A stretch of 63,994 nt of DNA, filler included, from Sanchytrium tribonematis (lineage: Eukaryota), in NCBI GenBank assembly GCA_018985235.1. It is 11 parts of 11 records of this genome, joined end to end, with 100 filler letters (N's around TTAATTAATTAA, not from the genome) between each part and the next. Parts side by side here need not be neighbours in the genome. Positions count along the whole stretch, not along the records: positions 1 to 5,896 come from JADGIG010000570.1; 10 more parts are not named here. One strand, 5' to 3'. Below are positions 1,346 through 55,110 of this stretch, piece by piece. The number at the start of each line of letters is the position of its first letter. Within the stretch, counting starts at the first letter, position 1. Position numbers and translations under genes: made by a program. The notes beneath the pieces are model-generated. The model worked only from the letters and a program-made list of their open reading frames with translations. It was not told the DNA's origin and did no database searches.

Positions 1346-2960
1346 ATGAGTTTACATCATTTAACACCGTTGCAAGTGATTCAAATGAGTATTACCCAAC
1401 CTCAAATTGATTCGATTAAACGATTGAATAAACCAGCTTCCAATTCAATCGCCTTGGAGGTTGGCTCACCCGGATATGCGCAAGAATTAATCAAGTATTG
1501 GGAGTCCATTCAAGGATCTCTGCCTGATAGATTGAAATTTGCAAAAGAACTTAAAAATGATGTCTTTAAAGGATATTCTATATTTACCGCGTTTGCAAAT
1601 TTAAGTTTAAACGCTGGCGAATCTCTCACTTCCGCCAAATCAATTCATGAGTTTTTGACCTATGCTAAGCTTAATGCCCAACCATTCACAGAAAGCATGT
1701 GCCTTATTGTACTACTAAAATTGTATAGGACACAGCCTATGTTAGGCTACTCTTTGCTGGAAAAATACTCGAAAAAAGACGAGTTGGAGTGGCAATTACC
1801 TACTTGCTTCACGACTTGTCCGTCAACTTTATCCGCACGATTTTATTACTATGGTTCCTGGTATCTTGGTACAGTTGGCCGTATATCATTAGCACTTAAA
1901 TGGATACAAGAAGGAATGCGTCTGGTTCCTATCCCAAGCGAACCTAAGATTGAGACTCCTGAGGATGGTAAAGATGCAAAAGGGGATAAATCGTCAGATT
2001 CTCCCAAAAAGAAAGAATCAAAACCTGACAAAAAAGTCGCCAAAACTGAGGCCGATTCAAAGAAGGAAAAAGGAGATGCTATGGATATCGATGCAGTTCC
2101 AGCTGAAAAGTCTCCCATTAAACCTCGCCCAACGTCCTTATTTAAAGTTGACAAAGAGGCTCATAAAAAAGGCCGTAATGGTTTCTTGCTGGCGTGTACC
2201 AAATTACTAATTTCCTGCCATTTATTAATGGGTGATATCCCAGAGAAAATTATTTTTAAACAAGTTCACGATAAATCTAATCCATTATTCTATTATAAGG
2301 AAATATGTAAAGCTATAAAATTTGGCGACATGCAGTCTTACTCTAGCACTTTGAAAAATAATATTGGACTATTTGAGGATGATTATACCTTTTCTTTCAT
2401 GCTTAGATTAAAACCGGCCGTAAGAAAGTCTGCTATTAAATCAATTATGAATGTTTATTCCTGCATAAGCCTCAAAGATATGGCAACCATGATTACCAAT
2501 ATGTCCTCCTCTTCCAAAGACGGTATTTTATTTTAATTAAGAAATGTTGGTAGATATAACTGAACATGAATTAGAGTATATGGTAGGAAAATGCATTGAA
2601 GAAGGAATCGTTTCAGGCTGTGTTGATCATACTAGTGGAGTGGTTTACTCTGGAATGAAAATTCCAGTTCCAAAATTAACTCCTGGACAAACACCGAATA
2701 GTGTAGTCGATGCTAGTGCTCCTACTGATTCTGCATTTGCTTCTTCCTTATTCGACCCTACCATTTCTTTCAAAAAAACTGTGGATCAATACCACGACCG
2801 TATCACTTATTGTCACCAAATTCATAATGCTGCTGTACAAGCTATGAAATATAAAGTAGAGAAAAATCCTTTAAAAGAGATGGAAGAAGCCAGAGAACAA
2901 GAAAGAGAGCTTTTCAAAGATATTGAAGAAGGCGAACTTGACGATGAAATGGATTTTTGA
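1346..2960 (+). CDS. RPN3: 26S proteasome lid subunit Rpn3; exons 1346-2522 and 2542-2960
   Basis: ARFYYYG, PCI domain (VYSCISLKDMA...LEYMVGKCIEEGIV), C-terminal QYHDRITYCHQIHNAAVQAMKY and acidic tail. A 19-nt intron joins two ORFs in frame. Confidence 0.85.
2523..2541 (+). other. 19-nt spliceosomal intron (RPN3)
   Basis: GTATTTTATTTTAATTAAG; removal gives GAC G|AA ATG. It ends in AAG, and an in-frame TAG acceptor at 2553 (31 nt) is an alternative. Confidence 0.7.
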
Positions 2961-3808: not shown

Positions 3809-4821
3809 ATGGCTTCAACATTGAATTTTCTACTTTCGGTATCGATTTTTTACTTAGATAAGTGGAATCTATGCTTGCTTTCTTAGTTGGGGTATTTTGC
3901 AAGAATCTCTAAGTACGAAATCATATGACGGCGCCAAATTTTCTCATTTTACGTTGCTTAATTTAATTCAAGCCATATTTGCGTGTTTTGTTGGAGCTTT
4001 GTATTCTAAGTTATATGGATTAAATCTAACCTTTTACAGGGACTACTTTATTGTAGCCCTATCATCTTCGTTGGCATCACCAATTGGATATATAAGCTTA
4101 AAATACATAAATTACCCGGTATTAGAATTTAACGTAGACTTTCTTGCTGGCCAAAAGTTGCAAGCTTCTTCCTTTGATGTTTGTTAGCAGAGTCTTCTTT
4201 CAGAGAAAATTTGCATTATATCAATATTTAAGTGTTGTTCTTATTTCTCTCGGTGTCTCTCTATTTATGTTTTTGCAGTCAAATAAGAAGAAAGATGATG
4301 TCAATAACTCTTGGTTTGGTGTAGGATTAGTTTTATTCAATTTATTTTTAGATGGATTTACAAATTCTAAGCAAGACAATTTATTTGTGAAGCATAAAGC
4401 CTTAACCTCCAAGCAGCTCATGTTTGGAATGAACGCCGCGTCTGCTGTTTGGATGCTATTGTATCTACTCTATGAAGGCGGCGAGCTCTATGACGGATTG
4501 CAACTACTTCAACAACATCCAAAAATTTTGGTCGATGTTTTATCTTTCTGTGTCGCAGGCGCAATCGGTCAAATTTTTATATTTCATACCCTTGAGAATT
4601 TTGGCAGCAGAACTCTGGTGACGGTCAATGTTACTAGAAAGATGTTTTCAATTTTGTTGTCTGTCTTTTGGTTTGCTCATGGAGTTAATCTTAGTCAATG
4701 GCTTGCTGTAGCACTAGTATTTGGTGGCATACTATTGGAATCTCTCATGAAGTCTAAAGCAGTGGAAGTACGCAAAGAAGAAAATGTAACTGTCATTTCA
4801 AAAGGCAAAAAGAGAGACTAA
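3809..4821 (+). CDS. HUT1: UAA-family nucleotide-sugar transporter (Hut1/SLC35B1); exons 3809-3838, 3858-4118, 4138-4821
   Basis: The spliced product restores GIYACFLSWGILQE and YINYP|TFLLAKSCKLLP; also LDGFTNSKQD and VTVNVTRKMFS. Confidence 0.9.
3839..3857 (+). other. 19-nt spliceosomal intron (HUT1 intron 1)
   Basis: GTATCGATTTTTTACTTAG; links ATG 3809 to the conserved frame (TCG|ATA). Confidence 0.85.
4119..4137 (+). other. 19-nt spliceosomal intron (HUT1 intron 2)
   Basis: GTATTAGAATTTAACGTAG; restores YP|TFLLAKSCK with canonical spacing. Confidence 0.95.
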
Positions 4822-5763: not shown

Positions 5764-5896
5764 AAGTGACTTCAAGATACTAATCTGGGTCGATTTTTCA
5801 GAGTAAGCCTAAATTAGTTGAAAAAACCTCGAAAAAATATCCGAATTCTTTTTGAATGATTCTTTCAAGAGCGGGTTGAGCTGTGACTCGTCTAAC

Positions 5897-6876: not shown

Positions 6877-7574
6877 TAACATCACAGATGTCAGTGTTAC
6901 CAATGTCTTACAGCTTGGAACAAATTGCAGTTTGGCAAATAATCCAATGGCACCTGGAGTGTTTGGTAAAACATTTAAAAAACTATGCAATTTGAATGGC
7001 ATTTACGTAAGCAAGAATAGCACGTGTAGAATCATTACGCTTGATGAATTATTGCACCCAGTTAGATCAACTACGGAAAAGAACACTTTTATCCCAATGA
7101 CATCCATTTCTGCTCCACTTTCGAAGACGACAAGTCTGCCGATTTTATACTCTAGTGATACTGATTATAAAAGCGATCTAACTTCATTTCAATCTCCAAT
7201 TATCAAATCGGAGAATTCCTTTATTATTTTAAATGATACCTCAACAGACTCCCCCTCTAATACTGCTTTGTTTTTGATAACCCGTAATTCTATATCATTT
7301 AGGACCAATTCGAACCAGTACAGATACTAACATTCCTTTGCAAAAGATGTATTCTTCAGGAACATCTATTAAAAGTGATTTTACATCTACAGAAAAATTG
7401 AAAATAGAAGCTGGAAATTGGAAAATTGACTCGTTTAGGATCAACTTGTCGCTTTTAATGACACTTAGAGTCGCCATCAACGCTATGATTATTGGGATTG
7501 TTGCGAGTAAAACTCCCATTCGAAAATCTTCCAAAGAAGTCAGAAATCACAAAGTTACGGCGATGAGTCCCTAA
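6860..7574 (+). pseudogene. 3' part of an LRR-like / Ser-Thr stalk / TM surface protein gene with no 5' end; intron 7284-7302
   Basis: LQNNNITDVSV...CSLANNPM...CNLNGIY cap, S/T-rich stalk, then a hydrophobic segment (LLMTLRVAINAMIIGIVASKTP) and basic tail. The two frames are joined by a 19-nt intron. Confidence 0.55.
7284..7302 (+). other. 19-nt spliceosomal intron
   Basis: GTAATTCTATATCATTTAG; ACC C|GA CCA joins ORF 6932-7330 to ORF 7338-7574. Confidence 0.8.
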
Positions 7575-7587
7575 TAAACTTAAGAAT

Positions 7588-8925
7588 CTATTTCTTTTTA
7601 TTTGCTAATATATCATGATAGAACCGTGGAAAGTTGTTATCCATCAACATTTTAGAAACTTCCCGCGCTATTGGATTTAACAATCCTAATTCCAATCTTT
7701 CTTGTTCTAAAGCCAATTTGAATTCATCCCTTAAATCCATTGGTAAATTCAACTCATACGTGGCATTAGATCGAATAAAATCATTGTAAATGGTTTTCAA
7801 ATCATTTTCAATGGCGAAATCGGCTACCAAGTACTTTTTGAATTGGTCAAACATGGCTGAATTTTCAATTGTTTTTTGAAACTGAGATTGCATGTCCACG
7901 TATTCAGATTCACTTCTTTTGATTTCACGTTGCGTGATATTGTGTTTGTAGATTTCTATTAATCCATTGATGCCGGGGATTAATAGACAAGTGGTAGCTA
8001 AACTGAGTAACATCAAAATAATCCATAAATCACTTCCAAAGACGATTTCAAAAGATTGACCAGTCTCTGTATTTTTAATACTTAGATTGATGACATATAA
8101 AGCCATAAAGAATACAATCTCGAAGCTGACCCACATCATTTCTTTTTTAATCCCAAAATTCTCATTCACGTGTTGAACACTTAAAATGAACCAAGGTAAA
8201 ACGAGGATACCCATTGATGCGATGCCCATAATAGCAATATAATTGGTCATCGGACATGGTTCCACATCTCCCAAGTGGTCTTTATTAAGAGATATCGTGA
8301 TAATGAGCAGCAAACATTCAAAAATACAAACTACTAAAAATGACTTGACAACCCCAAAAAATGAGATTTGATTCTGTGCTCTTGCGAAATCTAATAGCTT
8401 ATTCTTGACATTCTTGAATGAGACTCGACTTGTGTCTGATTTAATCGAGTAAGTCTCGAATTTATCCATATTTTCATTCTTTGGAGCTAAAAAGGTCGCT
8501 ACATGTGTATTTATGAATCTAAGTAAATCATCTACTCGTGTATACGACCATACCAAAGTATCATCTCGATTGGACTTCTCAGATATAAAATATTTGGCCA
8601 AATGAGCTTTACAAATCAACACGACATGCGCACATCTCACAAAAAAGTAAACAAAGAATGTCGGTGCTGTTAAATGTAAAATAGTCACCCATTGCGTACA
8701 TGTGGTCTTGTAATCTGTTGTTTCTTCTGTCACTGGATCTTTTGACGCGTATCCCAGGTTTAATTGACTTATGTTCAATAAAATGATTAATGGAATGACC
8801 ATAAATAGCGTCGTAACGGGCAGTCTATTGCGTATAATGTTTGATCTTTGTGCTGATATGAATGTAATGATGCATATTAAACAGTAAAGATTCGAGAAAA
8901 CCAAACTCAAAGTCAAAATCAACAT
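7588..8925 (-). CDS. 7TM receptor fused to a C-terminal RGS domain (GprK/AtRGS1-like architecture)
   Basis: About 7 hydrophobic segments with IRNRLP and VNENFGIKKEM, then FDQFKKYLVADFAIEN...IYNDFIRSNATYELNLP...MLMDNNFPRF. Confidence 0.8.
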   Translation of the reverse strand: MLILTLSLVFSNLYCLICIITFISAQRSNIIRNRLPVTTLFMVIPLIILLNISQLNLGYASKDPVTEETTDYKTTCTQWVTILHLTAPTFFVYFFVRCAHVVLICKAHLAKYFISEKSNRDDTLVWSYTRVDDLLRFINTHVATFLAPKNENMDKFETYSIKSDTSRVSFKNVKNKLLDFARAQNQISFFGVVKSFLVVCIFECLLLIITISLNKDHLGDVEPCPMTNYIAIMGIASMGILVLPWFILSVQHVNENFGIKKEMMWVSFEIVFFMALYVINLSIKNTETGQSFEIVFGSDLWIILMLLSLATTCLLIPGINGLIEIYKHNITQREIKRSESEYVDMQSQFQKTIENSAMFDQFKKYLVADFAIENDLKTIYNDFIRSNATYELNLPMDLRDEFKLALEQERLELGLLNPIAREVSKMLMDNNFPRFYHDILANKKK

Positions 8926-8995
8926 GTGGCTTGATTGTTTGAGCCATTTCAAATTTCGAAACAAATGTGGCTTGTCTCCATTTCAAGAGCTAGAA

Positions 8996-9817
8996 ATGGT
9001 GCTTTTACGTGACAATCCGGACATCTATCTGACCATCTTCATCCTGTTTTACGCATTAGGATTCGCGTTGTTTATTGCATTCAGAAATTCCCTCATTATC
9101 AAAAATAGACAACCCAAATTGGTGATTTTCGAGAATATCACCATTTCAATCAATGGAATCTTCAATATTGTCATCTATTTCAAATCAGTAGAACGCGCAT
9201 TATCCTGTGAAACTTATCAATATCTCGCTAGCGTGTTTGGAAGTGTTTCTCTCTCTTTATTAGTGGTTAGAATGAGTTTTGTCTATCAATACTTGATGAA
9301 AGAATCTGATTTACGCTCTTATGATGGTTTATTAGTCATTTCCAAATGGTTTTGGACGAGACGCGGTACTTTAAAGAAATTAAATTTATGCGCTTTAATT
9401 TCTGGTATTTCCATTTGTAGTTTTATCAATACTGGAATGTTTGCATGGAATAACGGCAAAGCATGGGGCACTACGCCATTACCAAATTGTCTTCAAAGCA
9501 CCATTGTATTCGTCACAGCGTACAATATCCTCGTCCAAATTTTATTTTTAGCGTATTCTTTCCAATTCATCAAATTCAAAATTTATGATCAAATTCTCAT
9601 GTCTGTCGAATTAACCTGCTTCACAATCACCCTCTTTTTCGCCACAATCATTTATTTGTTAGTCACAGGCCGTATTAATGCAGATATGGTCATTATGCAA
9701 ACTTGGATTTGTTTATGCTATGGCTTATACTTTCCCATTTTTGTCATTATGAAGCATAAAAAGAAAATTAAACGACAATCTTCAAAAATGACATTGGTAG
9801 ACGACAAGGTCATTTAA
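8996..9817 (+). CDS. 7TM protein related to the neighbour but lacking RGS
   Basis: Hydrophobic helices. IIKNRQP and IYDQILMSVEL match IIRNRLP and VNENFGIKKEM of the adjacent gene. Confidence 0.65.
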   Translation: MVLLRDNPDIYLTIFILFYALGFALFIAFRNSLIIKNRQPKLVIFENITISINGIFNIVIYFKSVERALSCETYQYLASVFGSVSLSLLVVRMSFVYQYLMKESDLRSYDGLLVISKWFWTRRGTLKKLNLCALISGISICSFINTGMFAWNNGKAWGTTPLPNCLQSTIVFVTAYNILVQILFLAYSFQFIKFKIYDQILMSVELTCFTITLFFATIIYLLVTGRINADMVIMQTWICLCYGLYFPIFVIMKHKKKIKRQSSKMTLVDDKVI

Positions 9818-10098
9818 ATTCATTTAGGTTCATTTATTATGCAAACAATTTTATTGTGAAGAATGTTTTTTATTTATTGAAGCGTACGAGAAATATTTAA
9901 GCAAGAAAACCACTATCGAGTACATTTCAACCAATTTTATTGAAGTCAATTCAATTTATGAGTTGAATATTTCTTCAGATTTACGTAATTCGTTCTTGAA
10001 TTCTGTTGATAAAGATGTGTATTTGACTAAAATACATAAAGAAATGCAATTATTGGTGATTCAGAATATTATGCCATATTTGAAATAAATGATTGAAT

Positions 10099-16612: not shown

Positions 16613-17846
16613 TTATACATTTTCATCTAATGCAAACATGACATCAAATTTATCATCCATTTCTTCTTCATGAATATCATGAATCGCCTGTTCCATTTGT
16701 TTCATAAAATCTAAATAAATGCGAATTACATGAATGATACGGACTAGTAGCAAATGGAGAATTAGGCAATGGACTCCAAGGTGATTCTGGTGGACTTCCA
16801 TTGACTAAAATAGACTGATTCATAGAATGTGACAAATCTCTATGATTTTGATTAAAATTGGAGTGTGGCAATTTTAATTGAGGAAGAGAGTGGGATGTGG
16901 GTGGTGAGTTTTGAATAGTGTTGTGCTGCATTGAACTAGATATCCCAGTTGTCGTAAATGTGGGAGTTGCATGAATTGGAGATTTTAACCAATTTGGAGT
17001 TACTGATAAGTAATCATCATCTCCTGGTCCACCGGGTCCACTAGAATGATTAGAATACTCATTTCTATTATTTGAATCATTTCTGGTGTGACTGTGGCTG
17101 TTTTGACCACCGTGACTGAAGAAACACGAATCTCCATAGTGGCAATTTCCTTTGAGGTAGAATTGACAAGGTGGTGGTTGATATTGGTGAGATACCATGG
17201 AAGAATGAATCAATCTACATTCATTTGGTGGCAATGAACACAACCCATATGTCCATTCTTGACATACAAATTGAGGAGGCACCTGAATGGATCGTGGGTG
17301 GATTTGGAAGTGATGTTGGAATGTAATGAGTGCAGATTGCACATTGGAGTTGCCAGAATTGTGGGATGTTGTGATTCTGACAGATGGCGTGTTTTTAATA
17401 ATATTCAATAAATTGGAGTCTACTTGCAATTTGGTGCAGAAAGTCTTGTTGTAAAGTTGCACTAGATGAATGAATGGGATTGGGTGATTTGGATGACATA
17501 AATGAGTGACGTGGGAAGTGAATGAGTCTGGATTTAAATCGGGTTTTAATTTCTTATGTTTTTCAGCCAAAGACACATAAGCATTGGAAATAGACCCACC
17601 ATTTGTATTTCCATTCGTTGAAGCATTTTGTAGCAACTCAATTCTAAAGATCCATGTGAATTCATTCATCCAATCCAATAATACATTTGGATTTGGAAAA
17701 TATTGAACAAATTCATTATCACTAAAGACATGCTGATACATGTGAAATAGATCATTGATGTGGACAAAGACATATGGGGATTGACAGATTTCCATTAATC
17801 GCATTAAACACTGGTACTTTTTACCTTTAATTAAATGGTTGAAACG
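16613..17846 (-). CDS. CCCH zinc-finger protein (5' partial); intron 16711-16729
   Basis: CQEWTYGLC...CRLIH and CQFYLKGNCHYGDSCFFSH. The frame is open to the contig edge, and splicing yields the acidic tail MEQAIHDIHEEEMDDKFDVMFALDENV. Confidence 0.8.
16711..16729 (-). other. 19-nt spliceosomal intron (CCCH gene)
   Basis: Minus strand GTAATTCGCATTTATTTAG; TCA T|AT TTT ATG. Confidence 0.75.
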
Positions 17847-18759: not shown

Positions 18760-20356
18760 ATGTACAGAACGGCAATGCGAGAAGCTAAAAATGTGGTGAA
18801 AGGATATACAGATATTCAAGTCAAATTGAGAGAAGCAACCAGCAATGATCCATGGGGTCCCTCAACAACTCAACTACAGGAAATTGCAGACTGTAGTTAT
18901 AACCCACAATTATTATTACAAATGCTTGATATAATTAACAAAAGACTAAATGACCATGGAAAAAATTGGAGACACGTTTTTAAGACCTTGGTAGTATTGG
19001 ATTATTTACTACATGCTGGGGCTGAAGAATCTATACGATTCGTAAACGAACACGTTTATTTGATCAAAACGCTCGTCGAATTTCAATATATAGATGAAGA
19101 TGGAAGAGATCAAGGTAAGTGTATAAGAGACAAAGCAAGTGATATTATTTCTCTTCTCAACGACAAAGATAGACTACAACGTGAAAGACAGCAAAGGAAT
19201 GCCTTGAGTAGCAAACTCTCAACCTCGCCAAATTCTAGACCCTCGGTGGGTGGTGATGAATATGAGCAAGATCTTCAACGAGCTTTGGAACTTAGTAAAC
19301 AGGAGTTTAATAAGGAACAAAAATATAGAGAACATGCTAGTACACAACAACATTATGAACATTCGCACGTTTCCTATAGTCCTCAGTCACCTGTAAAGTC
19401 CCAAGCCCCAGCAATTGATCTTTTGACAAATGATGATTTCGATCCAAACACATCTGTCAACAACAATGCACAATATGATCCATTTGAACTCGAAACCACA
19501 AATTATGTTGCAGCGCCATCAAGTCAGCAACAATTAGATCCTTTTGCCTCTAGTCAACCGCAGCAATTATTCGATGCTCGTCAAACTTACACCAATCCAA
19601 CTAACAACTTTATGATGCAGCCGCAGGCCACAAACTACAGTGCGAATTCGAATCCTTTTGGACAAAATACAAGTTCAAATTACCAGCAATCCCTAGTATT
19701 TGATAGTCAAACATCTTCAAATCCATTTTCGCAATCTACCAACTATCAGCAACCGATTCAAACGAACCCATTTGGGCAATATGGGACACAGCCAATTACA
19801 ACTGGAAATTCAAACCCTTTTGGAGGTAGTCAGGTGGGACAAAGTCAACTTTCCCAAAATTCAAATCCATTTGGAAATTCAAGCCAAGTTGGTTCTAACC
19901 CATTTGGCCAACAGCAAATTAATCCATATATCGGAAACAATTATGCGTCTTCTACTTTTCAAAGAGGTGGCGGTGGATTAGTTTTGGAACCAACTCCTCT
20001 GGCAAACGTGAACCAGAACGATTTGCCTGCTATGATCCCAAGTCTGACTGGGCTTCCTGCACAAAAAGCTCCAAATTACCAGGCACAAAGTCCACCACAA
20101 GCTGGTCTTGTCAATTTAGATAATATCTTCGACAATAAACCTCCAAAACAATTTGGTAAACAGTCAAGTCCTAGCAGCATTGGCTCTATGTCCACTGGAA
20201 TGAGCAATAACAGACCTCAAAATTCCAATGGTAATTTCTATTAAAATAGTTCCTCGAAATGCTCAAAACCCATTTCAGACAGTTCAGCAACAATATCCTG
20301 GACTTCCGATGAATCAGCAAATGAACCTTCAGCAGCAAAATAGAAATTTTATGTGA
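18760..20356 (+). CDS. ENT1: Epsin (ENTH + UIM + NPF repeats); exons 18760-20230 and 20250-20356
   Basis: LREATSNDPWGP, GKNWRHVFKTL, UIM EQDLQRALELSKQE, many NPF motifs; the spliced tail adds QNPF. Confidence 0.92.
20231..20249 (+). other. 19-nt spliceosomal intron (epsin)
   Basis: GTAATTTCTATTAAAATAG; AAT G|TT CCT continues a Q/N-rich tail containing NPF. Confidence 0.8.
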
Positions 20357-20383: not shown

Positions 20384-21635
20384 TTATTTATATTCAATCG
20401 CAATATCATCATATGAGTCTTCTTGAAATAAATTCAATTTGTTGCCATTTGCTAGCACAAGTAAATTATAAAAGCATTTCGCTGCTGCGTGCTTATAGTC
20501 TTTCTTAAATAGATTGACTACATTGCTAAACATTTGCGGTTTCTCATTCAACAGCTTTCTATATTATTTACGAATACTTATCAAAGTCGATTTTTTTTGT
20601 CAAGCGATTTGCCATTTCCATCTCGCTACTCAATAATCGACTTATTTTTGAAGGTGTCTTTTGCTTGCTAGTAGAGTCCGATGCTAGGGCTGGAACACTG
20701 ATTTCACCTGCAACTGACAATGACGAACTTAACGCCCGTCCAATTTCTTGACTTTCGTGAGAAAAGCTCTGAAAACCCTCAGGAACCAAAGGATAATCAT
20801 CGACACTACCAGTATTTCTTCCTGTCTCAATTTCCATGTTAAATTTTGCTATAAATGGAGTACAAGATTTAACAATTAAACTTTGAAATTCGAACCACTG
20901 AAAAATTTCAGGCTTAATTATACCATCAATTTCCTTGTCGTAAAATTTTCGAAATGATGCTACACCAGCCTTTCTTCTACTAGAGTTGCTCCTTTTTCTG
21001 GGCACTGCTTTTTTTGATTCAACTTCGATGTCGGGCAAAGTTGGAATTGAGTGGTTTAAATTTAATGGTGTCGGATGGCTGGGCATGTCCAAGTCGATGT
21101 TGAAGGTTCCTCCTAATCCATAGCCAAGATCATTTGAAGAATGTTCTACACCCAAGTCCAAATCCCCGGCCGTCGACAGGGATAATCCTTTAATGCTTTC
21201 CAAATCAAATTGATCAGCTGGTAGGTGTAGAGATTCTGGTCCCATTAAATGACTTTCAGTCTCCCAACTCAATTCTTGCTCTTGAAATTCTATTTCCAAA
21301 CTGTTAATTTGGTTGAAATCAATTTCAACCTTATTTTTACTATGAATCTGCTTCCTTTTGTGTAGCGTTTGCATTCTTGAAATCACCTGTTGAACATCTC
21401 CTGAATAAAAATCGTACTGCTGTTTGTATATTCTGGCAATGCCCAATAACAAGTGACTACTGAGTCTTAAAGCTAGTGGTTCTGAAGGATTGATCAAGAA
21501 CTCCACTTGTGCACCAATATCCACATTGTTAATCACCTTTTTAGACAATTTTTTAGTTTTGCTTCCCAAAGTGGAAGCAATCCAGCAAATACTCAAGCCA
21601 TTGTTCTTGGTCAAGAAATCGACAGAATAAAACAT
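20384..21635 (-). CDS. REC8: Rad21/Rec8 kleisin, Rec8-like; exons 21635-20578 and 20558-20384
   Basis: MFYSVDFLT...WIASTLG...LALRLSSHLLLGIARIYKQQ; splicing restores the winged-helix end AAAKCFYNLLVLA...QEDSYDDIAI. Confidence 0.8.
20559..20577 (-). other. 19-nt spliceosomal intron (REC8)
   Basis: Minus strand GTATTCGTAAATAATATAG; GAT AA|A AAG. Confidence 0.9.
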
Positions 21636-32186: not shown

Positions 32187-32877
32187 GCAGATGTGGGAGA
32201 AGACTCTTTAAATACCCCAAAATGACCCCTTTAAAACGGAATCAACTTGCTGTATCATTTAGCAGCGAATCAACTGTCAAAAAATATATTTTGAGTAACC
32301 ATGTGATGCCACATGATACTCCTGAAAGAACATGGGATCACGAGTCCCCCCCCCCAACAATTTCACATTTGAATGATCGTCGTCAATGAGATCAAATGTT
32401 GTGATAATTTATTGATTAATCATGTTTCCAATGTCCAGCGAATAAATGTTTAACAGCTGCAAATCGAACACATATGGGCTCTTGACAATTAAACAATAAA
32501 ACTGTGCCAACATAAACATCTCTTACTATTATTGGCACATTATTTAAATCTGATTTGACACCACCATTCTTGAATAGATATTGCTGAACAGATCTTGTCG
32601 TGGCACCAGGACCTGTCAGATTCACAATCGATATATCCAGGATATATAGTTTCTAATCCAACAATCATGCGAATTGAGGGTGAATCCGGTTTTTTTATTT
32701 GGTGCATATAAATAGTAAATCACTAATATAAATAAAAGACTAGACCATAATTGAAACATTATTTGGAGAATGTTGTACAACAAGGTAGATTATATACGAA
32801 AAAGATTGATTGTAAAATACTGATTGGTGCTTATTAATTTATTTCTTATTCTTTGACCCAAGTGGACATGAGTAAGC

Positions 32878-35753: not shown

Positions 35754-36592
35754 TGAATTTGACAAGTCAAAAAAGAAAATGATATTTTTAGATCTTGATG
35801 GCACAATTATACCTGTTGAGAAAACATTGCAGTCTACTGAGGTTGGGCTTTTAAATTCTTTGGCATCAAAAAGAAATAGCAAAAGTTTCACTAGTCTTGA
35901 TGAACTTCAACGATATAAAGAGCCGCAAATTAACATCGAATCGGTGTTAAAAAAGCTTTCACAGGACCCAAATAACATCATTTATGTCATTTCAAGTAAA
36001 AGAAGAGAAGCCTTGGACTCCCGATTTGGAGGAATCACTAATATCGGCATGGCAGCAGAAAATGGATGTTTTATTAAACACCCAAATTCTGAATGGGAAA
36101 ATAAAGCATCAGATGATCTTGAATGGAGAGATCAAGTCTTAGACCTACTAGAATATTATACAGAGGTACTCTTTTTTAATTTAGAGGACCCCAGGTTCAT
36201 ATATAGAAATCAAAAGTGTAAGTTTGGTATGGAATTATAGTTTGGCAGACAATGCATTTGGTTCTTGGCAAGCCGCTGAGCTAAAAAATCATATCAATGA
36301 GTCAGTGAGTGTCAAAGATCCTATATATTGTATTGCTGGATATAAAAATATAGCTGTGATGCCTAAGAATATCGACAAGGCAACCGCAATTAAAGCTGCA
36401 ATTCAACACTGTGGTACGGCTGATTTTTACATGGCTATCGGGGATGATTCTGCTGATGAACCTATGTTTGATTATATTCAACAGCTTGAGGGCAAACACA
36501 AATATGCTGTGACTGTTGGAAGGAAAGCCTCTAATAGTTCTTATTTTGCTACAAATGTTGATGAGGTGCTGAAACTATTGAGCGGCTTATAA
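35754..36592 (+). CDS. TPS2: Trehalose-6-phosphate phosphatase domain (Tps2-like, 5' partial); intron 36166-36184
   Basis: FLDLDGT, AAENGCFI, spliced EYYTE|RTPGSYIE, AIGDDSADE. Confidence 0.85.
36166..36184 (+). other. 19-nt spliceosomal intron (TPS2)
   Basis: GTACTCTTTTTTAATTTAG; restores the conserved YYTERTPGS motif. Confidence 0.95.
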
Positions 36593-37082: not shown

Positions 37083-40000
37083 TTACTTGAATCCAGCTTT
37101 AGCGAATAGTTGTCCTAAAGGAATTTCATTGCAATTACTAGATTGGATCATGAAATTGACTTGTTTTGTTATCAATGTGCAACAGCGGTCATACTTGTTT
37201 AAATATCTGATCATTGTTTCCCGTTTCGAAATTTCTAATTTATGGTACAGCTTTTTCAGCTCAGAAGCATCAAATGCTCTTTTTAATTGCACAAGGGTCA
37301 TGTGAATTGAATTACTATGTGTTACATAAGACTGGTGATTTAGTAAGAAAAATCTACCACGAGGTCCGCTATCGGTTTTCCTAGAGTAATATTCTTTCAC
37401 CATTGCTCTGATGTAACTCAATACTAGATTATATACTTTGGATTCATCTAACTCCTGCTTACATTTGTTACAAATAAAGCCAAGTGGATTTTCTTTCGCG
37501 CTACTTAGGAAATAAGTAACTTGATATGTGTTGTAGCATTGGCATGTAATTGGTATTTGCTTAAACTCCATATTAACATAAAGATCCAATTGTTCCGAGT
37601 AATTCATTTGTTGGTTCCCTTTATAATCCATTCCAAATATAGAAGCAATATGATGAATATCTAAATCCTCAATTGGATAAACTAACCTCTGAATAGGTGG
37701 AAAGAGCTGCTGATTTATGTACCATTCTGTATCTAAGTAAATATGAAATACCAACAACAAGAGTAGAGTCATTTTTTAAATCATCTGGATGAAATGACCT
37801 TGAGCTAAAACTTCCGCTTCCGACACAAACAACAAATGGAATGATATCTCCAACATGCACTGGAATGTTTTTAGATTGCATTTTCAGAGCGACCTGAACA
37901 TGAGGTTGATTTTTGGCATCGTCATATTTGGCAGGATCTTTGGTTAAACTTTTGTGAATAACAAATTCGTCGATCTCGATGTTACCGTTCTTTAAATTCT
38001 CGACTAAAATCCTCAAATGCTCAAAAATGTTATTGACAACTTCCTCGCGTGTGTCCTCGCTCATCAATTGCTTCAAAATAAAATGACTTGTGTCTCTTGA
38101 TAATTTACACCAATCTCTACGAACCATATCAAGACCTTTGACTTCCTCTTTGAACGAGATTTCGCTTCCATGTTCTTCAGCAATCAAAGCGGCATATTTT
38201 TTCTTTTTCAATAGCAACAGTTTTTTTAGATAGCCATCCATTCCTATTTCTAACTCTTTATACCTCATATTAACGCGCTTTCTAAAATCGTCACCAATTT
38301 CTTTTGCCTTTTGTAAATCATCTAGTCTGGTATGAATCATAATTGAGTCCGTGTCGCCATACACGACTTGAAGACCCATTTCAGTAGCTAATTCGACAGT
38401 ATTTTGCAACGATTGTCTTCCCTGATGAGTAATTAACATAGCGAGTGGTTTGGCGTAAAATCTACTGTTGGTAAATCCTAGACAACCGTACATGGAATTG
38501 GCAGTCAATTTCAAAGCTTTTTGTTGAATATCCAATTGTTGGTATTCTTGTTTGGACGCATTTTTCATCTTTTTCTTGACACTTTTTCTTTGTTCAACCA
38601 AATCTCCAAGCAGCTTCGGCAATATTCCTTGTTCTCGAGCTTCTGGGATCTCTGGCAAGTCTTCTTGATTTCTCTCAACAGTTGTAAAGCATATATTATA
38701 TTCTTGAATAATAGAGGGATAAAGTGAATTAAAGTCAAGAAGTAAAACATAGCTGTCATAAAATCCTACCACTGGTTCTAAAACTAGACCACCGGCATAT
38801 TGAGGTTTTCCTCTCTTCTTTTTCTCACCTGTAGATTTATACTGATATTTGTCTGGAACAATGTATTTTAAAGAATGAAATGTATGAAGTAGCAAGTATT
38901 CATTTCTTTCACTTCTAGCACCTGTAATTGTTCTGGACCAAGTATTTCCAGCTAAATTCGTGAGCTGCTTTGTTAACGGCAACACCTGCAACTTCATCAT
39001 TAAAGCAACAGCACTCATTGCATGATGGCAGCCCGTCTCCAACAAGAATATGAGTAAGTCACTGGAGCTGAAGTAATCTGCCATTCTTTCATGATTAATT
39101 TCTGGGATTTTTTGGTCCAAGATATTTTCAACCAATGCGTGAAGTTGAAAACTTCTCTGTTGCGGTAAGAGGTCTTTCGAGACGATAAATGTATCACAGA
39201 TCAATCTTCCACAGCAAACACCTCTTTCATTATGGCTCACTGTATTGATATTAGAGTTAATTTTGGGAAATTGTTTTCTTCGTAGCCTTCCTAATTTAGA
39301 CCACATATCGAGATTAAAGTGCTTCATTCTAGATAAAAACACGTTTAAATGATAACTTGTAAATGTATGACCAAATAAAACATCGGGATTGTATCGGGTT
39401 AGCAGACTTAAAAATTGTGCCAAAATTGTCTTTTCACTCTTGTGAATGTGGAATTTTAATCCCTTTGACATCATTTTTTGTTCTAGATCAAATGGAAGTG
39501 TCAAGGTTTGTGGCTGCCGTGTCATTGTAGTCTTTACGTAATTAAAATTATTATTTTGATCATGAATGTCCACGTCTAGATAAACCACAACACTTAGTCC
39601 TACAATTTCATTTTGGTTGGTTTTGTGATTCATTAATGTATCCATATGAATACTCATATACGTCAACTTTGGGAGGATAGGACTATCAAATACTTGAATG
39701 ACTTTAGGGTCCTCTACAATAAATTCTTTATCACACCAGGAGAAAGGACTTTCAGAATTTCCAAAAGTTTTAACTTTAAGCCAACATGGGCCCATAATCT
39801 TCCGCTTGATGATGAAATGCTCAAGGGCAGAGGTTTTAGTTCCGAATATTTTATAAAAGGTTTGACCTTGACTATCTGCAGGGAGTTCAGGGAAGTCGTA
39901 GCTGTATGTCACTTTCAAATATTCAGACTCCTGCGGTACATCTGGCAGTTCAAATGCATATTTTCTGGTGACTTCTTTCGCTTGAAGTTCCTTGATGTTG

Positions 40001-50445: not shown

Positions 50446-51021
50446 TACTCCAATGTTTTGAAAAATTTGAGATTGACTTACCAACAATTGCTATCATAAA
50501 TAAATGAAAGATGCATCTGAATTGCGAATTGGGGTGCAAGCTTCATCTGAATCCAATAAATCCATTTAAGTAAATTGGAGGACTTGCAAATACCATGATT
50601 TTATTGACCAGCAAAATCTTTGTGTGCAACATCTCAAGGTCACCAATTGAGACCCCAGAAAGCCCAAGGCGCTCAAATTTTCAAAGGAATTCAGAACAGA
50701 ATGATTGGAAAATAAATGCTGTGCAAGAATTTGATTGGTAACCAGATATTTTTATAATGTAAGGATCACATCTCTCACGAAATGAAAAATCATCTCACAC
50801 GAGTAAGCGATCCCTCATTCAAACTCAGCTCTGCCAACATCCCACTAATTTCACGAAAAGATGCAATGTATCGACTAAATCCAAAACTGATGCAAAAAGA
50901 AAACAAAGCCAAGTCAGTTATCAGCAACGTTGATATGCTCTTCTAATTGTGGATTTTAAAAATAAAACTCGAATTTATTACTGTTCTATCAAATCTAGAA
51001 TTCTACAGCTTGTGTACTAAA

Positions 51022-53347
51022 TTAAATCAAAATTACCTTGCAATGCTCAAGCATCTCCACACCCAAATCTTTGTAACCCTGCTGAAGTAATATTAAAACG
51101 ACATCTTCTGCGCAATTCTTTCCATGGCTCATTAGTATTTTCAGTATATAAAGTGGAATAGGTTGTTGAACATTAATGCAAGCAGATACAAATGACTTGA
51201 CATCAGAAACAACCAATAATCTCACAACATCGGTATATTTTCGCAAGCATCCATCAAATTCAATCAATGCACCTGGCTGACTAGAATGCAAAACAGCTAA
51301 TTTATCTAATTTAAATGCACTTTTGATATCTTGCTTTGATATACAAAACTCAACTAATTTTTTAGTCGTAATAGGTCCATTATTTTCAAGTAAAAACTGT
51401 ATAGACAACAGCTCTACAAATATATCATGTTCTAACTTTTTGAGCGCATTTGTGTCATGCTTTTCTCCTGTAACAATTAAAATAGATTTGTAAATTAAAA
51501 GTGCTTGAGATCTTCCTGTATGTGCTTGCACGGTATCTTTGCAAGGCTTTCTGAGAAACCCTTTTAATACTTCAATGCATTTAGAATACTCTAAATTCGT
51601 TAATAAACATCGCAAAAGCACATTCAAGACGGTCCACTCAGGATTTGCGTGGTACAGGCTTAAACAGACTTTCAACATTCTTTCATTTACACTAAATTCG
51701 TGAATCATGTCTAGATTGTTTGTTTCAATCATAGTTGTCAAGATATTTTTGTAATAATAATCTTCATCGACATTATTTAAAATTTTCTCACAATAATTAA
51801 AATCTGTTTGTTTTCCCAATTCAAAATATTCCAACAAGATTGGGTTATCAGGAATCAACTTGCAATTCTGTTCAGACTGGACTAGACGTATATAAACAGG
51901 AACTAGAGCATGTAAAACGTATTCTTTTTCATATTTCATGACGCATTTGATGTAATTTAGTAAAACGACAGAGGAACAAGTCACGAATAAAGTGCCGTGT
52001 TCTTGGTGTGTCTTGTTAATGGGTGTTTGTGATAATAATTGCAGCACCTTTGTATCACTAAATCCACCTCTCATTGGGGTATTTTGACTCATGGAACTAT
52101 CTGGCTGCAAGTAAGATGCGCAATTGACCAGATGAGCCGGATTTACGTTAAATATACCATTCAAGAATTGATAACATGGTAAATTGGGTAGAGCAATTAA
52201 TATTTCAAAATCTTTTGGATTCTGGGAAGTTTTAAACATTTCATATAATAAAGTACTTACAGACAAGTGCAGATTTTCTAAATCTATTTGGTTAATTAAT
52301 TCGGCATCTTTAATAGCATTATGACGCAGCAACCATTCTATAATTACACTCACAAATGACAAATTCAAAACTTGGTTTAATTCCTCAGTCAACAGAATAT
52401 CATTGTAATTATGGAGTACTAGTAATGTTTTACAGCAAACACCAAGCACGATAAATGCACTAAAATTGATTTCGTGCAATCTGTGGATATTATATCTCGC
52501 TAATAATGGACAATTTTCTTTCCTCGTCTTTTCAGAATACAATTCGATTAAAACTTTAATCAAGGCTCTAATCAAAGGTAAACACTCTAAACAATCATGA
52601 TCTGCAATCAATAAATGTGGGCTGGGTATCAAACACTGCTTAATATGAGTTGGATTAGAGAATAACAACGAGTTGGATATTGTGTCGAGTTGCCAATTGA
52701 TATTTGTAAAATTATAAAGATTTAAAAATTTGGTGAGAATAGACTCATCAACAGATAGATTCATGCTTTGCAAATATAAATCTGCTTCGTGGGATTTTCT
52801 CAGCATCGTTTCAATTAAATGAGGAGATCTGACTACCAAAACATCTTGCTGACAATAAACAAATACTTCACTGTTATGGACAGCCACAGCAACGGGTAAA
52901 CGGAATGCAGCTGTTTTTAGTTTAAATTGATTCAAAATTACTTGCTGTTCTTCTTTAGTCAATTCTAGAATTTGAGCATTTAGATCGTTTCCCATTAAAT
53001 TAGTATTTAAAATTCTATTTAGAATAAATCGGGGCGAGTTGTATTCCAGAACATCATCAATTGTTTTAGGTTGTCTTTTAAGCAATTTATCGCCATTTGG
53101 TAAGCTCACAGGCGATAATTCTGTGTTTGCGCTTTTGAACTTGAAATACTGCAGACACAGTTGGTCATCTCGGACACCAACTAGTACAAAAAATGTTTTT
53201 TCATATAATTGAAGCAAAGCAACTTCTTTCAAATGCATATTGCTTCTCATAAATCCAAATTCTTTACAGTCTGTTGTATAATACAAGACGCTTGAGTCCC
53301 AAACCACCAATAATAATCTCTGGTTCGAGCACAATAATCCAGCCATG
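51022..53347 (-). CDS. Large beta-propeller/helical protein, possibly nucleoporin Nup120/160 (5' may be partial)
   Basis: 774-aa ORF with a beta-rich start and helical remainder; C-terminal PIPLYILKIL...VVLILLQQGY weakly resembles Nup160. Confidence 0.35.
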
Positions 53348-53447: not shown

Positions 53448-55110
53448 TTTTGATATGTTTTCATAACTAGATGCTTTGCTAAGCGCAGCATCAATTAATT
53501 CTTTGGCATAATTGACGGACTCTTGATTTCCCTTAAGCTCACATTTGTAATTATCAGATTCATTAGCACCTTTTTCTAAAATGATATCACACGCAGAAGT
53601 TCTTTTAATTTCTTTGATGGTGACGCCTTTTTTACCAATGACGTGTCCGACGATCGAAGCTGGTATTTCAAATGATTGCCGAGTAAATTCTTGAGGTTGC
53701 TGAGATTTAAATGTTCTTGGAGGTCGTTGACCATATAAATTTTGATGATATCCACTATTTAATGCTGAGAGTAGCATTTCCTTGGCAAATTCGCATTTGG
53801 ATCTATCGCCAATAATTACAACGACTCTTGAACCATTAATTGCTGGTCTTAACGCTACGTCACAACCAGATTCTGTAATAATTGAGTCAAGTGTTTTTCC
53901 GTTTTTGCCCAAAACCAATGAAGAATCTCTTTCGTCAATAATATGCTCAATTTTAAACTAAGTGAGTGAAAATTACAATATCATTATTTCTAGGCTTTTT
54001 GTAGTTGCGATCGTTCTCAGCGTCATTGTAAGTTCTTTTTCTGGTGTACTCAGAAAACGATGGTCTAGCAGGGGACGGTCTCAAAGGAACTCTTCCACCT
54101 TGTGGAGCCCAAGATCTTTCCGGATCGCGTTGAACATTTCCTTGTTCAAAGACGGTTATAGCATCATTAATAAGTTCTTTTGCATACTCAATATTTTCCA
54201 AGGAACCGGTTATATTGACAATTTGTTTTTCCCTGCCTTCAGCTTGATCGATGCTTACATTGCAATTACTTTTGTGACAAATATCTTGAATTATACAACC
54301 TTTAAATCCAATAATTGCACCAACATGTACATCACTAACATAAATTTTCTTTGTAATCATGTCCGCGGAGGCCATCGAAGCGGCTAGAGGCACAGCAACT
54401 TGTCTCAGTTCCCTCCTGTCACGAGTGTCTCTGTTTTGAAATGAATCAATAACATCTTGTACCTCTTTTTGCGCAATTTCAATTGCAGCAGGGGAACCAG
54501 ATATTTCAACTCTTTTAATATCTCCAGGGTTTTCTTCATTAACGACGATTCGCGGTCTAGGATTGCCACATTTGGCAATGATATCCTTAATTTTGGCTCC
54601 TTTATATCCGATTAAAAACCCCACGGCTTCTTTTGGAATGTTCAATTCAACTTTGGAAGCATACTGTTCATTGGACTTTCTTAATATCATACCTTGAACC
54701 ATATCATATGCCATAGCCACACAGGGTTCACTTTTGCTTTTAAAGAGAATGTTACATTCACTGCTTCCATATTCTGGTTCTTTAATCTCTATATCTTGAC
54801 ACCCAGATTCTAATCTAATTAATCGTAGAGTTTTTCCATTTTGACCCAAAACAAAGCCATAAAACGATTTATCAACCACTAATTCTTTCTCAAATATTTC
54901 ATTGCCATCATTAAGATTTCTTATTTGTTTAGCCATTCCATATATTTGATTTTCATCATCATTTTCAGATAAAACAATTTTTGGACGTTGTCCATCAACA
55001 AATTTCAATTTGCCTTGAAATTTAGATTTCAGTTCATCCAAATTTTCAACCACTTTTCTAACATGGACAGTTGGTAAATATAGAGCATACTCTTTTGAAG
55101 AAGTCATCAT
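53448..55110 (-). CDS. Multi-KH-domain RNA-binding protein (FUBP/KSRP-like, 3' partial); intron 53958-53976
   Basis: Five GxxG loops: VLGQNG, LIGYKG, IIGFKG, VLGKNG, VIGKKG. Confidence 0.88.
53958..53976 (-). other. 19-nt spliceosomal intron (KH gene)
   Basis: Minus strand GTAATTTTCACTCACTTAG; GAT ATT|TTT AAA joins the two KH ORFs. Confidence 0.9.

What the first reader, a model, noticed from the sequence alone, without database searches (positions are those of the whole stretch)
3839..4137. Invariant T-n-A branch signal at -8/-6, predicting a 14-nt lariat loop (Stentor-like geometry)
Seen in sequence: aligning the 11 introns, all start GTA, all have T at position 12 and A at position 14, and 10 of 11 end TAG. 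Positions 4-11 are variable and AT-rich. There is no extended GTAAGT donor, full CTAAC box or polypyrimidine tract, although some retain TAAC/TCAC/TTAC. Established: heterotrich ciliate tiny introns also have a conserved A six nt from the 3' end. Inference: the branch point and 3' site are fused at a fixed distance, with convergence between a fungus and ciliates. U1 and U2 could hardly bind simultaneously, which predicts a remodelled U1/U2AF/SF3b set. Coordinates give the two HUT1 examples.
Basis: partly seen in the sequence, partly recalled or inferred. Interest (0 to 1): 0.8.

Follow-up and report, generated by a model that had tools for sequence, protein, structure and literature searches.

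The report
Nineteen-base introns in a sanchytrid fungus
Genes of an alga-parasite-type fungus (a sanchytrid) are interrupted by inserts only 19 bases long that are likely spliced out as introns, with a predicted branch adenine always six bases from the end; I found no paper describing them, and they are shorter than the typical fungal or animal introns in the papers I read.

Summary
The window (11 joined contigs) comes from a sanchytrid fungus (groups with Amoeboradix gromovi). Twelve 19-nt GT..AG inserts break genes; 12 of 12 have T at -8 and A at -6. Homology alone fixes five. Three sanchytrid RPA1 orthologues read through the same intron (19, 19, 22 nt) and force A at -6, Y at -5 and T at +5. 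A 20-nt candidate also keeps A at -6, so the signal follows the 3' end. Corrections: T-n-A is the ordinary degenerate branch point (yUnAy); one intron starts GTC; +5 is a conserved T (11 of 12), not variable; the -6 geometry is already known in a fungus (Yarrowia). The predicted remodelled U1/U2AF/SF3b set is not supported so far: Amoeboradix keeps U1-70K, U2AF, SF1 and SF3B1, and Stentor keeps normal U1/U2. Slu7, Prp18, U1C and Prp28 had no hit in an incomplete table. No RNA was available, so splicing and branch use are inferred. New: near-uniform 19-nt introns in Fungi, missed by the intron-blind published annotation. This scan noted longer tiny introns before (Rozella, Neolecta), none in sanchytrids.

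The parts
3809..3838 (+). HUT1 (UDP-galactose/UAA transporter) exon 1, 10 codons from the ATG
   Evidence: spliced gene is 324 aa and aligns end to end with fungal HUT1
3839..3857 (+). HUT1 intron 1, 19 nt, phase 0, predicted branch A at 3852
   Evidence: best of 6 GT/GC..AG deletions by HMM score, 91.5 against 88.4 for a 46-nt GC option that removes nearly all of exon 1
3858..4118 (+). HUT1 exon 2
   Evidence: alignment to fungal HUT1
4119..4137 (+). HUT1 intron 2, 19 nt, phase 0, predicted branch A at 4132
   Evidence: best of all 1199 frame-restoring deletions of 1-61 nt (388.0 bits; best 1-nt deletion 376.0; next GT/GC..AG 355.6)
4138..4821 (+). HUT1 exon 3
   Evidence: Pfam UAA 99-309; 75% identical to A. 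gromovi protein P0002
2523..2541 (+). Rpn3/PSMD3 intron, 19 nt, phase 1, ends AAG, in-frame stop inside
   Evidence: both flanks match Rpn3 in different frames; homology demands the frame shift but does not separate 19 from a 31-nt option
7284..7302 (+). 19-nt intron in a gene of unknown family, phase 1
   Evidence: branch-blind coding model ranks it first of 2 options; no homology support
9809..9827 (+). 19-nt intron starting GTC in a membrane protein with C-terminal RGS domain, phase 0
   Evidence: coding model; weak Pfam RGS on the downstream exon, E 0.008; stop 2 codons into the read-through
16711..16729 (-). 19-nt intron near the 3' end of a CCCH zinc-finger gene, phase 1
   Evidence: coding model finds 19- and 34-nt options with the same acceptor; boundary chosen by pattern
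20231..20249 (+). [quoted passage not shown]
   Evidence: adds a 35-aa Q/P/N-rich last exon; weakest of the twelve, picked by pattern and open frame
20559..20577 (-). Rad21/Rec8 intron, 19 nt, phase 2
   Evidence: Pfam Rad21 N domain upstream and Rad21 C domain downstream in another frame; only 13- and 19-nt options, same acceptor
36166..36184 (+). trehalose-phosphatase domain intron, 19 nt, phase 0
   Evidence: Pfam Trehalose_PPase positions 20-101 end at the donor and 102-233 start at the acceptor
37733..37751 (-). DNA polymerase alpha intron, 19 nt, phase 1
   Evidence: best of 14 GT/GC..AG options, 196.0 against 187.9 bits; a Batrachochytrium gene model breaks at the same codon
49113..49131 (-). 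RPA1 intron, 19 nt, phase 0
   Evidence: HMM alone ties 19 and 16 nt (513.6, 512.9); three intronless sanchytrid paralogues align without a gap only with 19; same intron in three orthologues
53958..53976 (-). 19-nt intron in a multi-KH-domain gene, phase 0
   Evidence: coding model ranks it first of 3 options; KH domains on both sides
51017..51036 (-). candidate 20-nt intron at the 3' end of a 774-aa ORF; A still at -6
   Evidence: highest score in the window for a matrix trained on the other twelve; downstream exon only 12 codons, no homology test
5809..5827 (-). candidate 19-nt intron starting GTT, in a gene cut by the contig end
   Evidence: held-out matrix score 13.1, CTAAT at the branch position; a second allele differs at two adjacent middle positions only

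Best explanation
These 19-base GT..AG inserts in genes of a sanchytrid fungus are likely ordinary major-type (U2) spliceosomal introns shrunk to a near-uniform minimum, in which the invariant T-n-A at -8/-6 is predicted to be the canonical branch point, giving a 14-nt lariat loop and a 5-nt tail. Shown: the inserts, their removal restoring conserved proteins, the consensus GTA-n-T ... Y-T-n-A-Y-W-T-A-G, and the A staying at -6 when length is 20 or 22. Inferred: U2 snRNA pairs with positions 9-15 and bulges A14; the first AG after the branch (always 3 nt on) is the acceptor, so no polypyrimidine tract or scanning is needed; length is bounded below by the smallest loop the active site can close and pushed down by deletion bias. 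Because U1 (+1..+6) and U2 (+9..+15) footprints lie 2 nt apart, they would act one after the other rather than together, with a largely conventional core spliceosome, as argued for Stentor. The changes I would expect are at the margins: loss or weakening of the second-step factors Slu7/Prp18, which set a minimum branch-to-acceptor distance in yeast, and a changed reading of the 5' site, where +5 is U instead of G.
For: Enrichment only at 19 nt (11 against 1.6). Five borders fixed by homology without using the branch motif: HUT1 twice, RPA1, POL1, trehalose phosphatase. T-8/A-6 in 12 of 12, Y-5 in 11 of 12, no shared TnA at another position. Read-through tails of three RPA1 orthologues (P0127 = A. 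gromovi, P0125, P0126) force by codon structure GT, T at +5, A at -6, Y at -5 and TAG in 3 of 3, at 19, 19 and 22 nt. In contigs of DNA run X1 the HUT1, Rpn3 and RPA1 inserts are unchanged, and 9 of 9 differences in the downstream exons fall on third codon positions of the spliced frame, 8 silent. A. gromovi annotation lists Prp8, U2AF35/65, SF1, SF3B1, SF3B3, SF3A3, Prp5, U1-70K, Luc7, Prp40, Prp17, Prp16/22-type helicases, Cwc25, Isy1 and the lariat debranching enzyme Dbr1 (PMC8371127 supplement file 4); no hit for Slu7 or Prp18 by three kinds of label. Slu7/Prp18 are dispensable at short branch-acceptor distance and Prp18 acts as a minimum-distance ruler (PMC10711555; PMC10158995). Same -6 geometry in Stentor and Yarrowia.
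Against: No transcript or lariat evidence; splicing and branch use rest on homology and analogy. Only 12 introns in the window plus 3 inferred from protein tails, and T at -8 is not determined in those 3. Seven of the twelve lack a homology-fixed border: Rpn3 (19 or 31), Rad21 (13 or 19), CCCH (19 or 34), orf7284, RGS, KH and epsin. The match to TACTAAC is weak (2-5 of 7), so U2 pairing would be poor unless U2 or SF1 has adapted. The absences of Slu7/Prp18 come from a table that annotates only 3,757 of 7,220 intron-blind ORFs of another species and were searched with identifiers I recalled; U1C, Prp39, Prp28 and Yju2 also had no hit, which could equally mean a reduced U1 pathway or just missed annotation. 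No snRNA gene lies in the window.
Confidence: 0.8

Rival explanations
1. The introns are as described, but the 5' site is read by a remodelled or bypassed U1 pathway: U1 (and/or the U6 ACAGAGA box) carries a compensating change that pairs with +5 U, or U1 is vestigial and the tri-snRNP finds the 5' site directly after U2 binds. This is the first reader's inference in a narrower form and is compatible with the best explanation's intron anatomy.
For: +5 is T in 11 of 12 window introns and 3 of 3 orthologous introns, a positive preference rather than loss of G; U1C, Prp39 and Prp28 had no hit in the A. gromovi table; precedents: coevolved U1 in Entamoeba (bioRxiv 2022.06.08.495308 abstract), no U1 snRNA found in E. 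cuniculi or among Mikrocytos snRNAs.
Against: U1-70K, Luc7, Prp40 and a U1A/U2B''-type protein are annotated; Stentor's commonest intron also has U at +5 yet its U1 5' end and U6 ACAGAGA are unchanged; U2AF and SF3b subunits are present.
Confidence: 0.35
2. T-n-A is not the branch point but part of an extended 3' splice-site word read by U2AF (as with the nematode UUUCAG), or a product of AT bias; branching occurs elsewhere or at variable A's.
For: The introns are 83% A+T inside (130 of 156 bases); the whole 3' block from -9 to -1 is conserved; nucleomorph introns of the same size show no discernible branch A (PMC6009652).
Against: A-6 alone is 12 of 12 at p 5e-7 against interior composition; T two bases before the A and Y after it is the branch consensus; no other A position is shared; SF1 and Dbr1 are annotated in A. 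gromovi.
Confidence: 0.08
3. The branch A is placed by a ruler from the 5' end (always position 14), and its distance to the 3' end is fixed only because length is fixed.
For: In all twelve 19-nt introns the two readings cannot be told apart; an earlier unchecked note of this scan proposed a 5' ruler for Rozella.
Against: The 20-nt candidate has the motif at position 15 and the 22-nt orthologous intron has A at position 17, both -6; these are only two cases, one unverified.
Confidence: 0.06
4. The inserts are not spliceosomal introns: frameshifted pseudogenes, assembly errors, or Ire1-type short introns.
For: No RNA evidence of removal.
Against: They sit in essential genes (POL1, RPA1, Rpn3, Rad21); the best-fitting deletion in HUT1 is 19 nt, not 1 nt; a second allele or strain carries them unchanged with silent changes downstream; the RPA1 one is shared with other species; none of 13 tested has a CNG|CNG border or any predicted hairpin.
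Confidence: 0.03

Closest known systems
Tiny introns of heterotrich ciliates (Stentor coeruleus; PMC9505925, parts 1-3 of 6 read)
   Same: GUA start, AU-rich, near-uniform length, putative branch A six from the end with a 5-nt tail, U at +5 in the commonest intron, most genes intronless (18% of Stentor genes carry introns)
   Different: 15-16 nt with a 10-11-nt loop against 19 nt with a 14-nt loop; sanchytrid introns keep a recognisable yUnAy; unrelated lineage
Fixed branch-acceptor introns of Yarrowia lipolytica, Trichomonas, Giardia (PMC2483917, passages) and Entamoeba invadens (bioRxiv 2022.06.08.495308, abstract and section 12)
   Same: branch anchored at a set distance from the AG, no polypyrimidine tract; in Yarrowia the distance (2 nt) puts the branch A at -6, as here, in a fungus; E. 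invadens shows a TNA at a fixed position
   Different: those introns are long (Yarrowia median 204 nt) with a strong ACTAAC; here the branch word is degenerate and the whole intron is 19 nt
Chlorarachniophyte nucleomorph introns (Bigelowiella natans; PMC6009652, passages)
   Same: 18-21 nt, GT..AG
   Different: no discernible branch A and 3.1 introns per gene there; here an invariant T-n-A and about 0.2 intron per gene in a main nuclear genome
Mikrocytid 16-17-nt introns (PMC10245619, section 7 and passages)
   Same: parasite, uniform length, conserved sequence
   Different: rhizarian; spliceosome cut to 17-19 proteins without U1 found, whereas A. gromovi lists many more components including U1-70K
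Short introns of other opisthokonts: myxobolid myxozoans (median 22-27 nt; PMC13644364, parts 1-2 of 3), E. cuniculi (median 32 nt; PMC2483917 table), Rozella (about 30 nt; PMC6349667 passage)
   Same: ultrashort U2-type introns in parasites
   Different: longer and more variable; in myxobolids the putative branch A's move away from the AG as length grows, here the A stays at -6

Membership tests
Major (U2-type) spliceosomal intron | GT..AG borders | tested here: met
   12 of 12
Major (U2-type) spliceosomal intron | removal restores a conserved reading frame | tested here: met
   HUT1 x2, RPA1, POL1, trehalose phosphatase exactly; Rpn3 and Rad21 at the level of the frame shift
Major (U2-type) spliceosomal intron | branch-point word (U two bases before the branch A, pyrimidine after) | tested here: met
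   T-8, A-6 in 12 of 12; Y-5 in 11 of 12
Major (U2-type) spliceosomal intron | removed from transcripts through a lariat at that A | not testable with these tools
   no RNA run listed
Major (U2-type) spliceosomal intron | host encodes U1, U2, U4, U5, U6 snRNAs and core proteins | tested here: inconclusive
   no snRNA in the window, no whole genome held; proteins seen only in the relative's annotation table; an Lsm gene lies in the window
Heterotrich-type tiny intron | length 15-16 nt | tested here: not met
   19 nt; no excess at 15 or 16
Heterotrich-type tiny intron | conserved A six nt from the 3' end, 5-nt tail | tested here: met
   against PMC9505925
Heterotrich-type tiny intron | ciliate host (common descent) | tested here: not met
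   POL1 tree groups the window with A. gromovi, SH-aLRT 100
Yarrowia/Trichomonas-type fixed branch-acceptor intron | branch at a fixed distance from the AG, no polypyrimidine tract | tested here: met
   12 of 12 at -6; also at 20 and 22 nt
Yarrowia/Trichomonas-type fixed branch-acceptor intron | strong, nearly invariant ACTAAC branch sequence | tested here: not met
   2-5 of 7 matches to TACTAAC, none complete
Chlorarachniophyte nucleomorph intron | 18-21 nt length | tested here: met
Chlorarachniophyte nucleomorph intron | no discernible branch A; intron-dense nucleomorph genome | tested here: not met
   invariant A-6; 0.19 intron per kb in a fungal nuclear genome
Ire1-spliced (HAC1/XBP1-type) intron | CNG|CNG hairpin loops at both borders (motif recalled) | tested here: not met
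   0 of 13 tested, none folds (HUT1 intron 1 was not in that script)

The most novel reading that the evidence does not exclude
Sanchytrids run the shortest intron system in fungi and animals, a phylum-wide 19-nt class (roughly two thousand per genome) with a GUAnUU donor and fused yUnAy-AG acceptor, served by a spliceosome that has dropped Slu7/Prp18 and rewired 5'-site reading (changed U1/U6, or U1C/Prp28 lost), so that a fungal spliceosome closes a 14-nt lariat without a conventional U1-U2 prespliceosome.
Probability: 0.3. Interest if true: 0.8.

Novelty: new variant of a known kind. Interest (0 to 1): 0.62.

Why it matters
It adds an independent origin of near-minimal, near-uniform introns, inside Fungi, close to the best-studied spliceosomes; with Stentor (10-11-nt loop) it brackets how small a lariat can be and which factors must change. 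The combination here (19 nt, defined branch at -6, conserved +5 U, low intron density) gives direct predictions for U1, U6, Slu7 and Prp18 that public sanchytrid genomes can test at once. It also matters practically: the published sanchytrid proteomes were called with TransDecoder on genomic contigs, and 11 of about 60 genes in this window are split by such introns; A. gromovi HUT1 and one RPA1 are deposited truncated and its SF1 appears as two adjacent ORFs, so gene counts and some gene-loss claims for this phylum may need redoing.

Tried and rejected
No whole genome is held for the window, so no genome-wide logo or snRNA search was possible. Run search: one DNA holder, no RNA holder listed; this says nothing about expression. 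Two scans of metagenome contigs (HUT1 exon 3; sanchytrid RPA1 alignment) found no relative, so no intron DNA from relatives was seen. The search of 50% representatives with the RPA1 junction region returned no sanchytrid orthologue beyond those already held. Rfam and ARAGORN found no snRNA or tRNA in the window. A branch-blind coding model gave 28 junction clusters: 9 hold one of my 19-nt introns; it missed both HUT1 introns and epsin; the rest I set aside as joins of neighbouring complete genes (CK2 beta, Trm8), cuts through intact Pfam domains (GRF finger), in-frame 3n deletions with no support, or low-scoring non-coding joins; in-frame 18- or 21-nt introns without a stop cannot be excluded by this method. 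Pattern matches rejected as coding: 55215-55233 (end of the LSM domain) and 45790-45808 (SET domain). The overall excess of GT-N15-AG (374 against 302) is larger than 12-14 introns explain and stays unexplained. The ESM Atlas gave only a weak HPS3-like lead for the 774-aa protein carrying the 20-nt candidate. The POL1 tree is the quick version; the careful search did not finish, and it shows the sister pair, not the position of sanchytrids among fungi. Literature: searches for sanchytri+intron (9 papers), Amoeboradix+splicing (6), Sanchytriomycota+genome annotation (2), tiny introns+fungi+19 nt, tiny introns+branch+spliceosom (22), microsporidia+shortest introns (0) and early-diverging fungi+intron length (3) showed no description of sanchytrid introns; of those hits I opened only PMC8371127 and PMC10459994 among the sanchytrid papers. 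Subscription papers are not searched, and two supplements of PMC8371127 (the main supplementary PDF and one table) were too large to read and could mention introns.

Full report
Source. The window is 11 contigs of 4.7-5.9 kb joined by N spacers, about 34% G+C, densely packed with eukaryotic genes. HUT1 exon 3 is 75% identical to a protein of Amoeboradix gromovi and 70-74% to three unnamed ENA proteins, while the next named hits (Paraphysoderma, Basidiobolus, chytrids) are at 45-51%. In a quick IQ-TREE tree of 28 DNA polymerase alpha rows the window and A. gromovi form a pair on a long common branch, SH-aLRT 100. The organism is therefore a sanchytrid (Sanchytriomycota); I did not determine the species. 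Published sanchytrid genomes have similar G+C, about 35% (PMC8371127, passages).

The observation. Both HUT1 inserts lie where stated and are 19 nt. The pattern GTA-N8-TnA-nn-TAG occurs 11 times at 19 nt against 1.6 expected, and at background for the other 33 lengths tried, the largest being 7 against 2.3 at 32 nt. All 12 have T at -8 and A at -6. To avoid circularity I tested borders without the branch motif. For HUT1 intron 2 the 19-nt GT..AG is the best of 1199 frame-restoring deletions; for HUT1 intron 1 it is the best of 6 GT/GC..AG options; for POL1 the best of 14. For RPA1 the HMM ties 19 and 16 nt, but three intronless sanchytrid paralogues align gap-free only with 19. For the trehalose phosphatase, Pfam positions 101 and 102 fall exactly on the two borders. 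Rpn3 and Rad21 need the frame shift by homology but allow a second length (31 and 13 nt). A coding model trained contig-out and blind to the branch motif recovers 9 of the 12 among 28 clusters. Against the introns' own middle composition, T-8 with A-6 has p 6e-11 for all 12 and 4e-10 for the 11 picked by homology or coding; for the five exactly fixed ones about 5e-5.

Independent checks. Contigs of one public DNA run cover both regions laid; the HUT1, Rpn3 and RPA1 inserts show no difference and no deletion, and all 9 differences in exons downstream of those inserts are at third codon positions of the spliced frame, 8 silent. Whether that run is independent of the window's assembly I cannot say. 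More telling, intron-blind gene calls of three RPA1 orthologues (P0127 from A. gromovi, unnamed P0125 and P0126) run into the same intron. Their read-through residues give 19, 19 and 22 nt and, by codon structure and assuming an AG end, force GT, T at +5, A at -6, Y at -5 and T at -3 in 3 of 3; position -8 is not determined. So the intron class is shared across sanchytrids. A matrix trained on the twelve gives its top score in the window to a held-out 20-nt site at the end of a long ORF, again with T-8/A-6; it is a candidate only.

What the signal is. The consensus is GTA-n-T-(T) ... (T)-T-n-A-Y-(T)-T-A-G: +5 T 11 of 12, +6 T 8 of 12, -9 T 9 of 12, -5 Y 11 of 12, -4 T 9 of 12, -3 T 11 of 12. 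U two before an A followed by a pyrimidine is the canonical branch word in degenerate form (established knowledge; WCTRAYN in PMC2483917; the TNA core in Entamoeba invadens). No other position shares a TnA (at most 4 of 12). In all 12 the acceptor is the first AG after that A. Since the A stays at -6 at 20 and 22 nt, it is tied to the 3' end. Branching there would give a 14-nt loop and a 5-nt tail (inference).

How it likely works. Shown: anatomy and conservation. Inferred: U2 pairs with positions 9-15, the AG three bases past the branch docks without scanning, and length sits at the smallest loop that can be closed. But this need not mean a rebuilt U1/U2AF/SF3b: Stentor, with 15-16-nt introns, keeps all five snRNAs, the usual U1 5' end, U2 GUAGUA, U6 ACAGAGA, U1A, U1C, U1-70K and nearly all U2 proteins, and differs mainly in parts of branching factors (PMC9505925). 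In the A. gromovi eggNOG table (supplement file 4 of PMC8371127; the A. gromovi sheet lies within the held text, the second sheet is cut) I found U1-70K, a U1A/U2B'' protein, Luc7, Prp40, U2AF35, U2AF65, SF1, SF3B1, SF3B3, SF3A3, Prp5, Prp8, Prp17, Prp16/22-type helicases, Cwc25, Isy1 and Dbr1, and no hit for Slu7, Prp18, U1C, Prp39, Prp28 or Yju2. Those blanks are weak: 3,757 of 7,220 ORFs are annotated, the ORFs are intron-blind, and my search labels were recalled. Still, Slu7 and Prp18 are the factors that yeast does not need at short branch-acceptor distance, and Prp18 enforces a minimum of about 10 nt, with 7 nt the shortest seen without it (PMC10711555, passages; PMC10158995, passages); here the same measure is 5 nt. 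Their loss is thus my preferred accompanying change (about even odds), and the +5 U leaves a changed U1 or U6 open (about one in three).

Comparison with what is known. The -6 branch with 5-nt tail is that of Stentor and of the yeast Yarrowia lipolytica, where BP-AG is 2 nt, so neither the geometry nor its occurrence in a fungus is new. The length matches chlorarachniophyte nucleomorph introns, which lack a visible branch A. Mikrocytids have 16-17 nt. Among opisthokonts the shortest values I saw are medians of 22 nt in myxobolids, 32 nt in E. cuniculi and about 30 nt in Rozella. It works like a Stentor or Yarrowia 3' end; it is a member of the U2-type class by sequence, not of the heterotrich family.

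Novelty. The sanchytrid genome paper has 0 occurrences of 'splic' in its main text, one of 'intron' (a reference), and called ORFs with TransDecoder on contigs; a second sanchytrid paper mentions introns only in a reference. Seven searches found no description of these introns, within the limits of the library. Earlier notes of this scan concern Rozella (25-32 nt) and Neolecta (about 37 nt); 'sanchytrid', 'Amoeboradix' and 'Sanchytrium' occur in none, and there are no notes on this genome. Density here is 0.19 intron per kb, in 11 of roughly 60 genes (my count); scaled to an 11-Mb genome that would be about two thousand, if these short contigs are typical.

Papers seen: PMC9505925 parts 1-3 of 6; PMC13644364 parts 1-2 of 3; PMC10245619 passages and section 7; PMC2483917, PMC8371127, PMC10459994, PMC10711555, PMC10158995, PMC6009652, PMC6349667, PMC8476143, PMC3629993 passages; PMC8371127 supplement file 4 by term search; bioRxiv 2022.06.08.495308 abstract and section 12; PMC10581693 abstract only (not used).

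Verdict. Real and well above chance; a new variant of a known kind. The branch signal is ordinary, the lineage and the 19-nt class with +5 U appear undescribed, and the spliceosome claim remains open. Interest 0.62.

Noticed in passing
window, the 12 introns: Ten of 12 lie at or beyond the middle of the coding sequence (sign test p 0.02), the reverse of the 5' bias reported for Stentor and yeasts; small first exons are harder to see, though the matrix scan found no further strong 19-nt site in a 5' coding position.
   Followed up: partly
window 37733-37751 (-) against P0276, P0273, P0170: A Batrachochytrium POL1 gene model breaks at the same codon, suggesting an ancestral intron that shrank; A. 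gromovi POL1 has no break there but a 5-residue gap just before it, possibly an imprecise intron loss.
   Followed up: partly
window 48645-50445 (-); P0123-P0128: Sanchytrids appear to carry two RPA1 paralogues, one with the tiny intron and one without; A. gromovi has both. The intron-bearing orthologues start about 150 residues later than the window's ORF, which may hide a further intron.
   Followed up: partly
PMC8371127 supplement file 4, rows 1135-1136: A. gromovi SF1/BBP is annotated as two consecutive ORFs on one contig, as expected of an unrecognised intron.
   Followed up: no
window 41155-41173 (-): A 19-nt GTA..TAG with T-8/A-6 but A at +5 lies about 140 nt upstream of the POL1 start, outside any long ORF; it may be a 5' UTR intron or chance.
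   Followed up: partly
whole window: GT-N15-AG occurs 374 times against 302 expected, an excess larger than the known introns explain.
   Followed up: partly
window 2723-2834, 50943-51061, 52699-52837: Run X1 shows paired alternative contigs here, as from a diploid or mixed population; one pair spans the 20-nt candidate, with its single indel outside the intron.
   Followed up: no
window 7591-8982 (-) and 8888-10085 (+): Two divergent membrane proteins with C-terminal RGS domains whose ORFs start back to back; only one has an intron.
   Followed up: no
window 51025-53346 (-): A 774-aa protein without a Pfam hit; the ESM Atlas gives a weak HPS3/BLOC-2-like lead.
   Followed up: partly
window 32400-33850: About 1.4 kb without an ORF of 100 codons in an otherwise dense genome; no Rfam match.
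   Followed up: no
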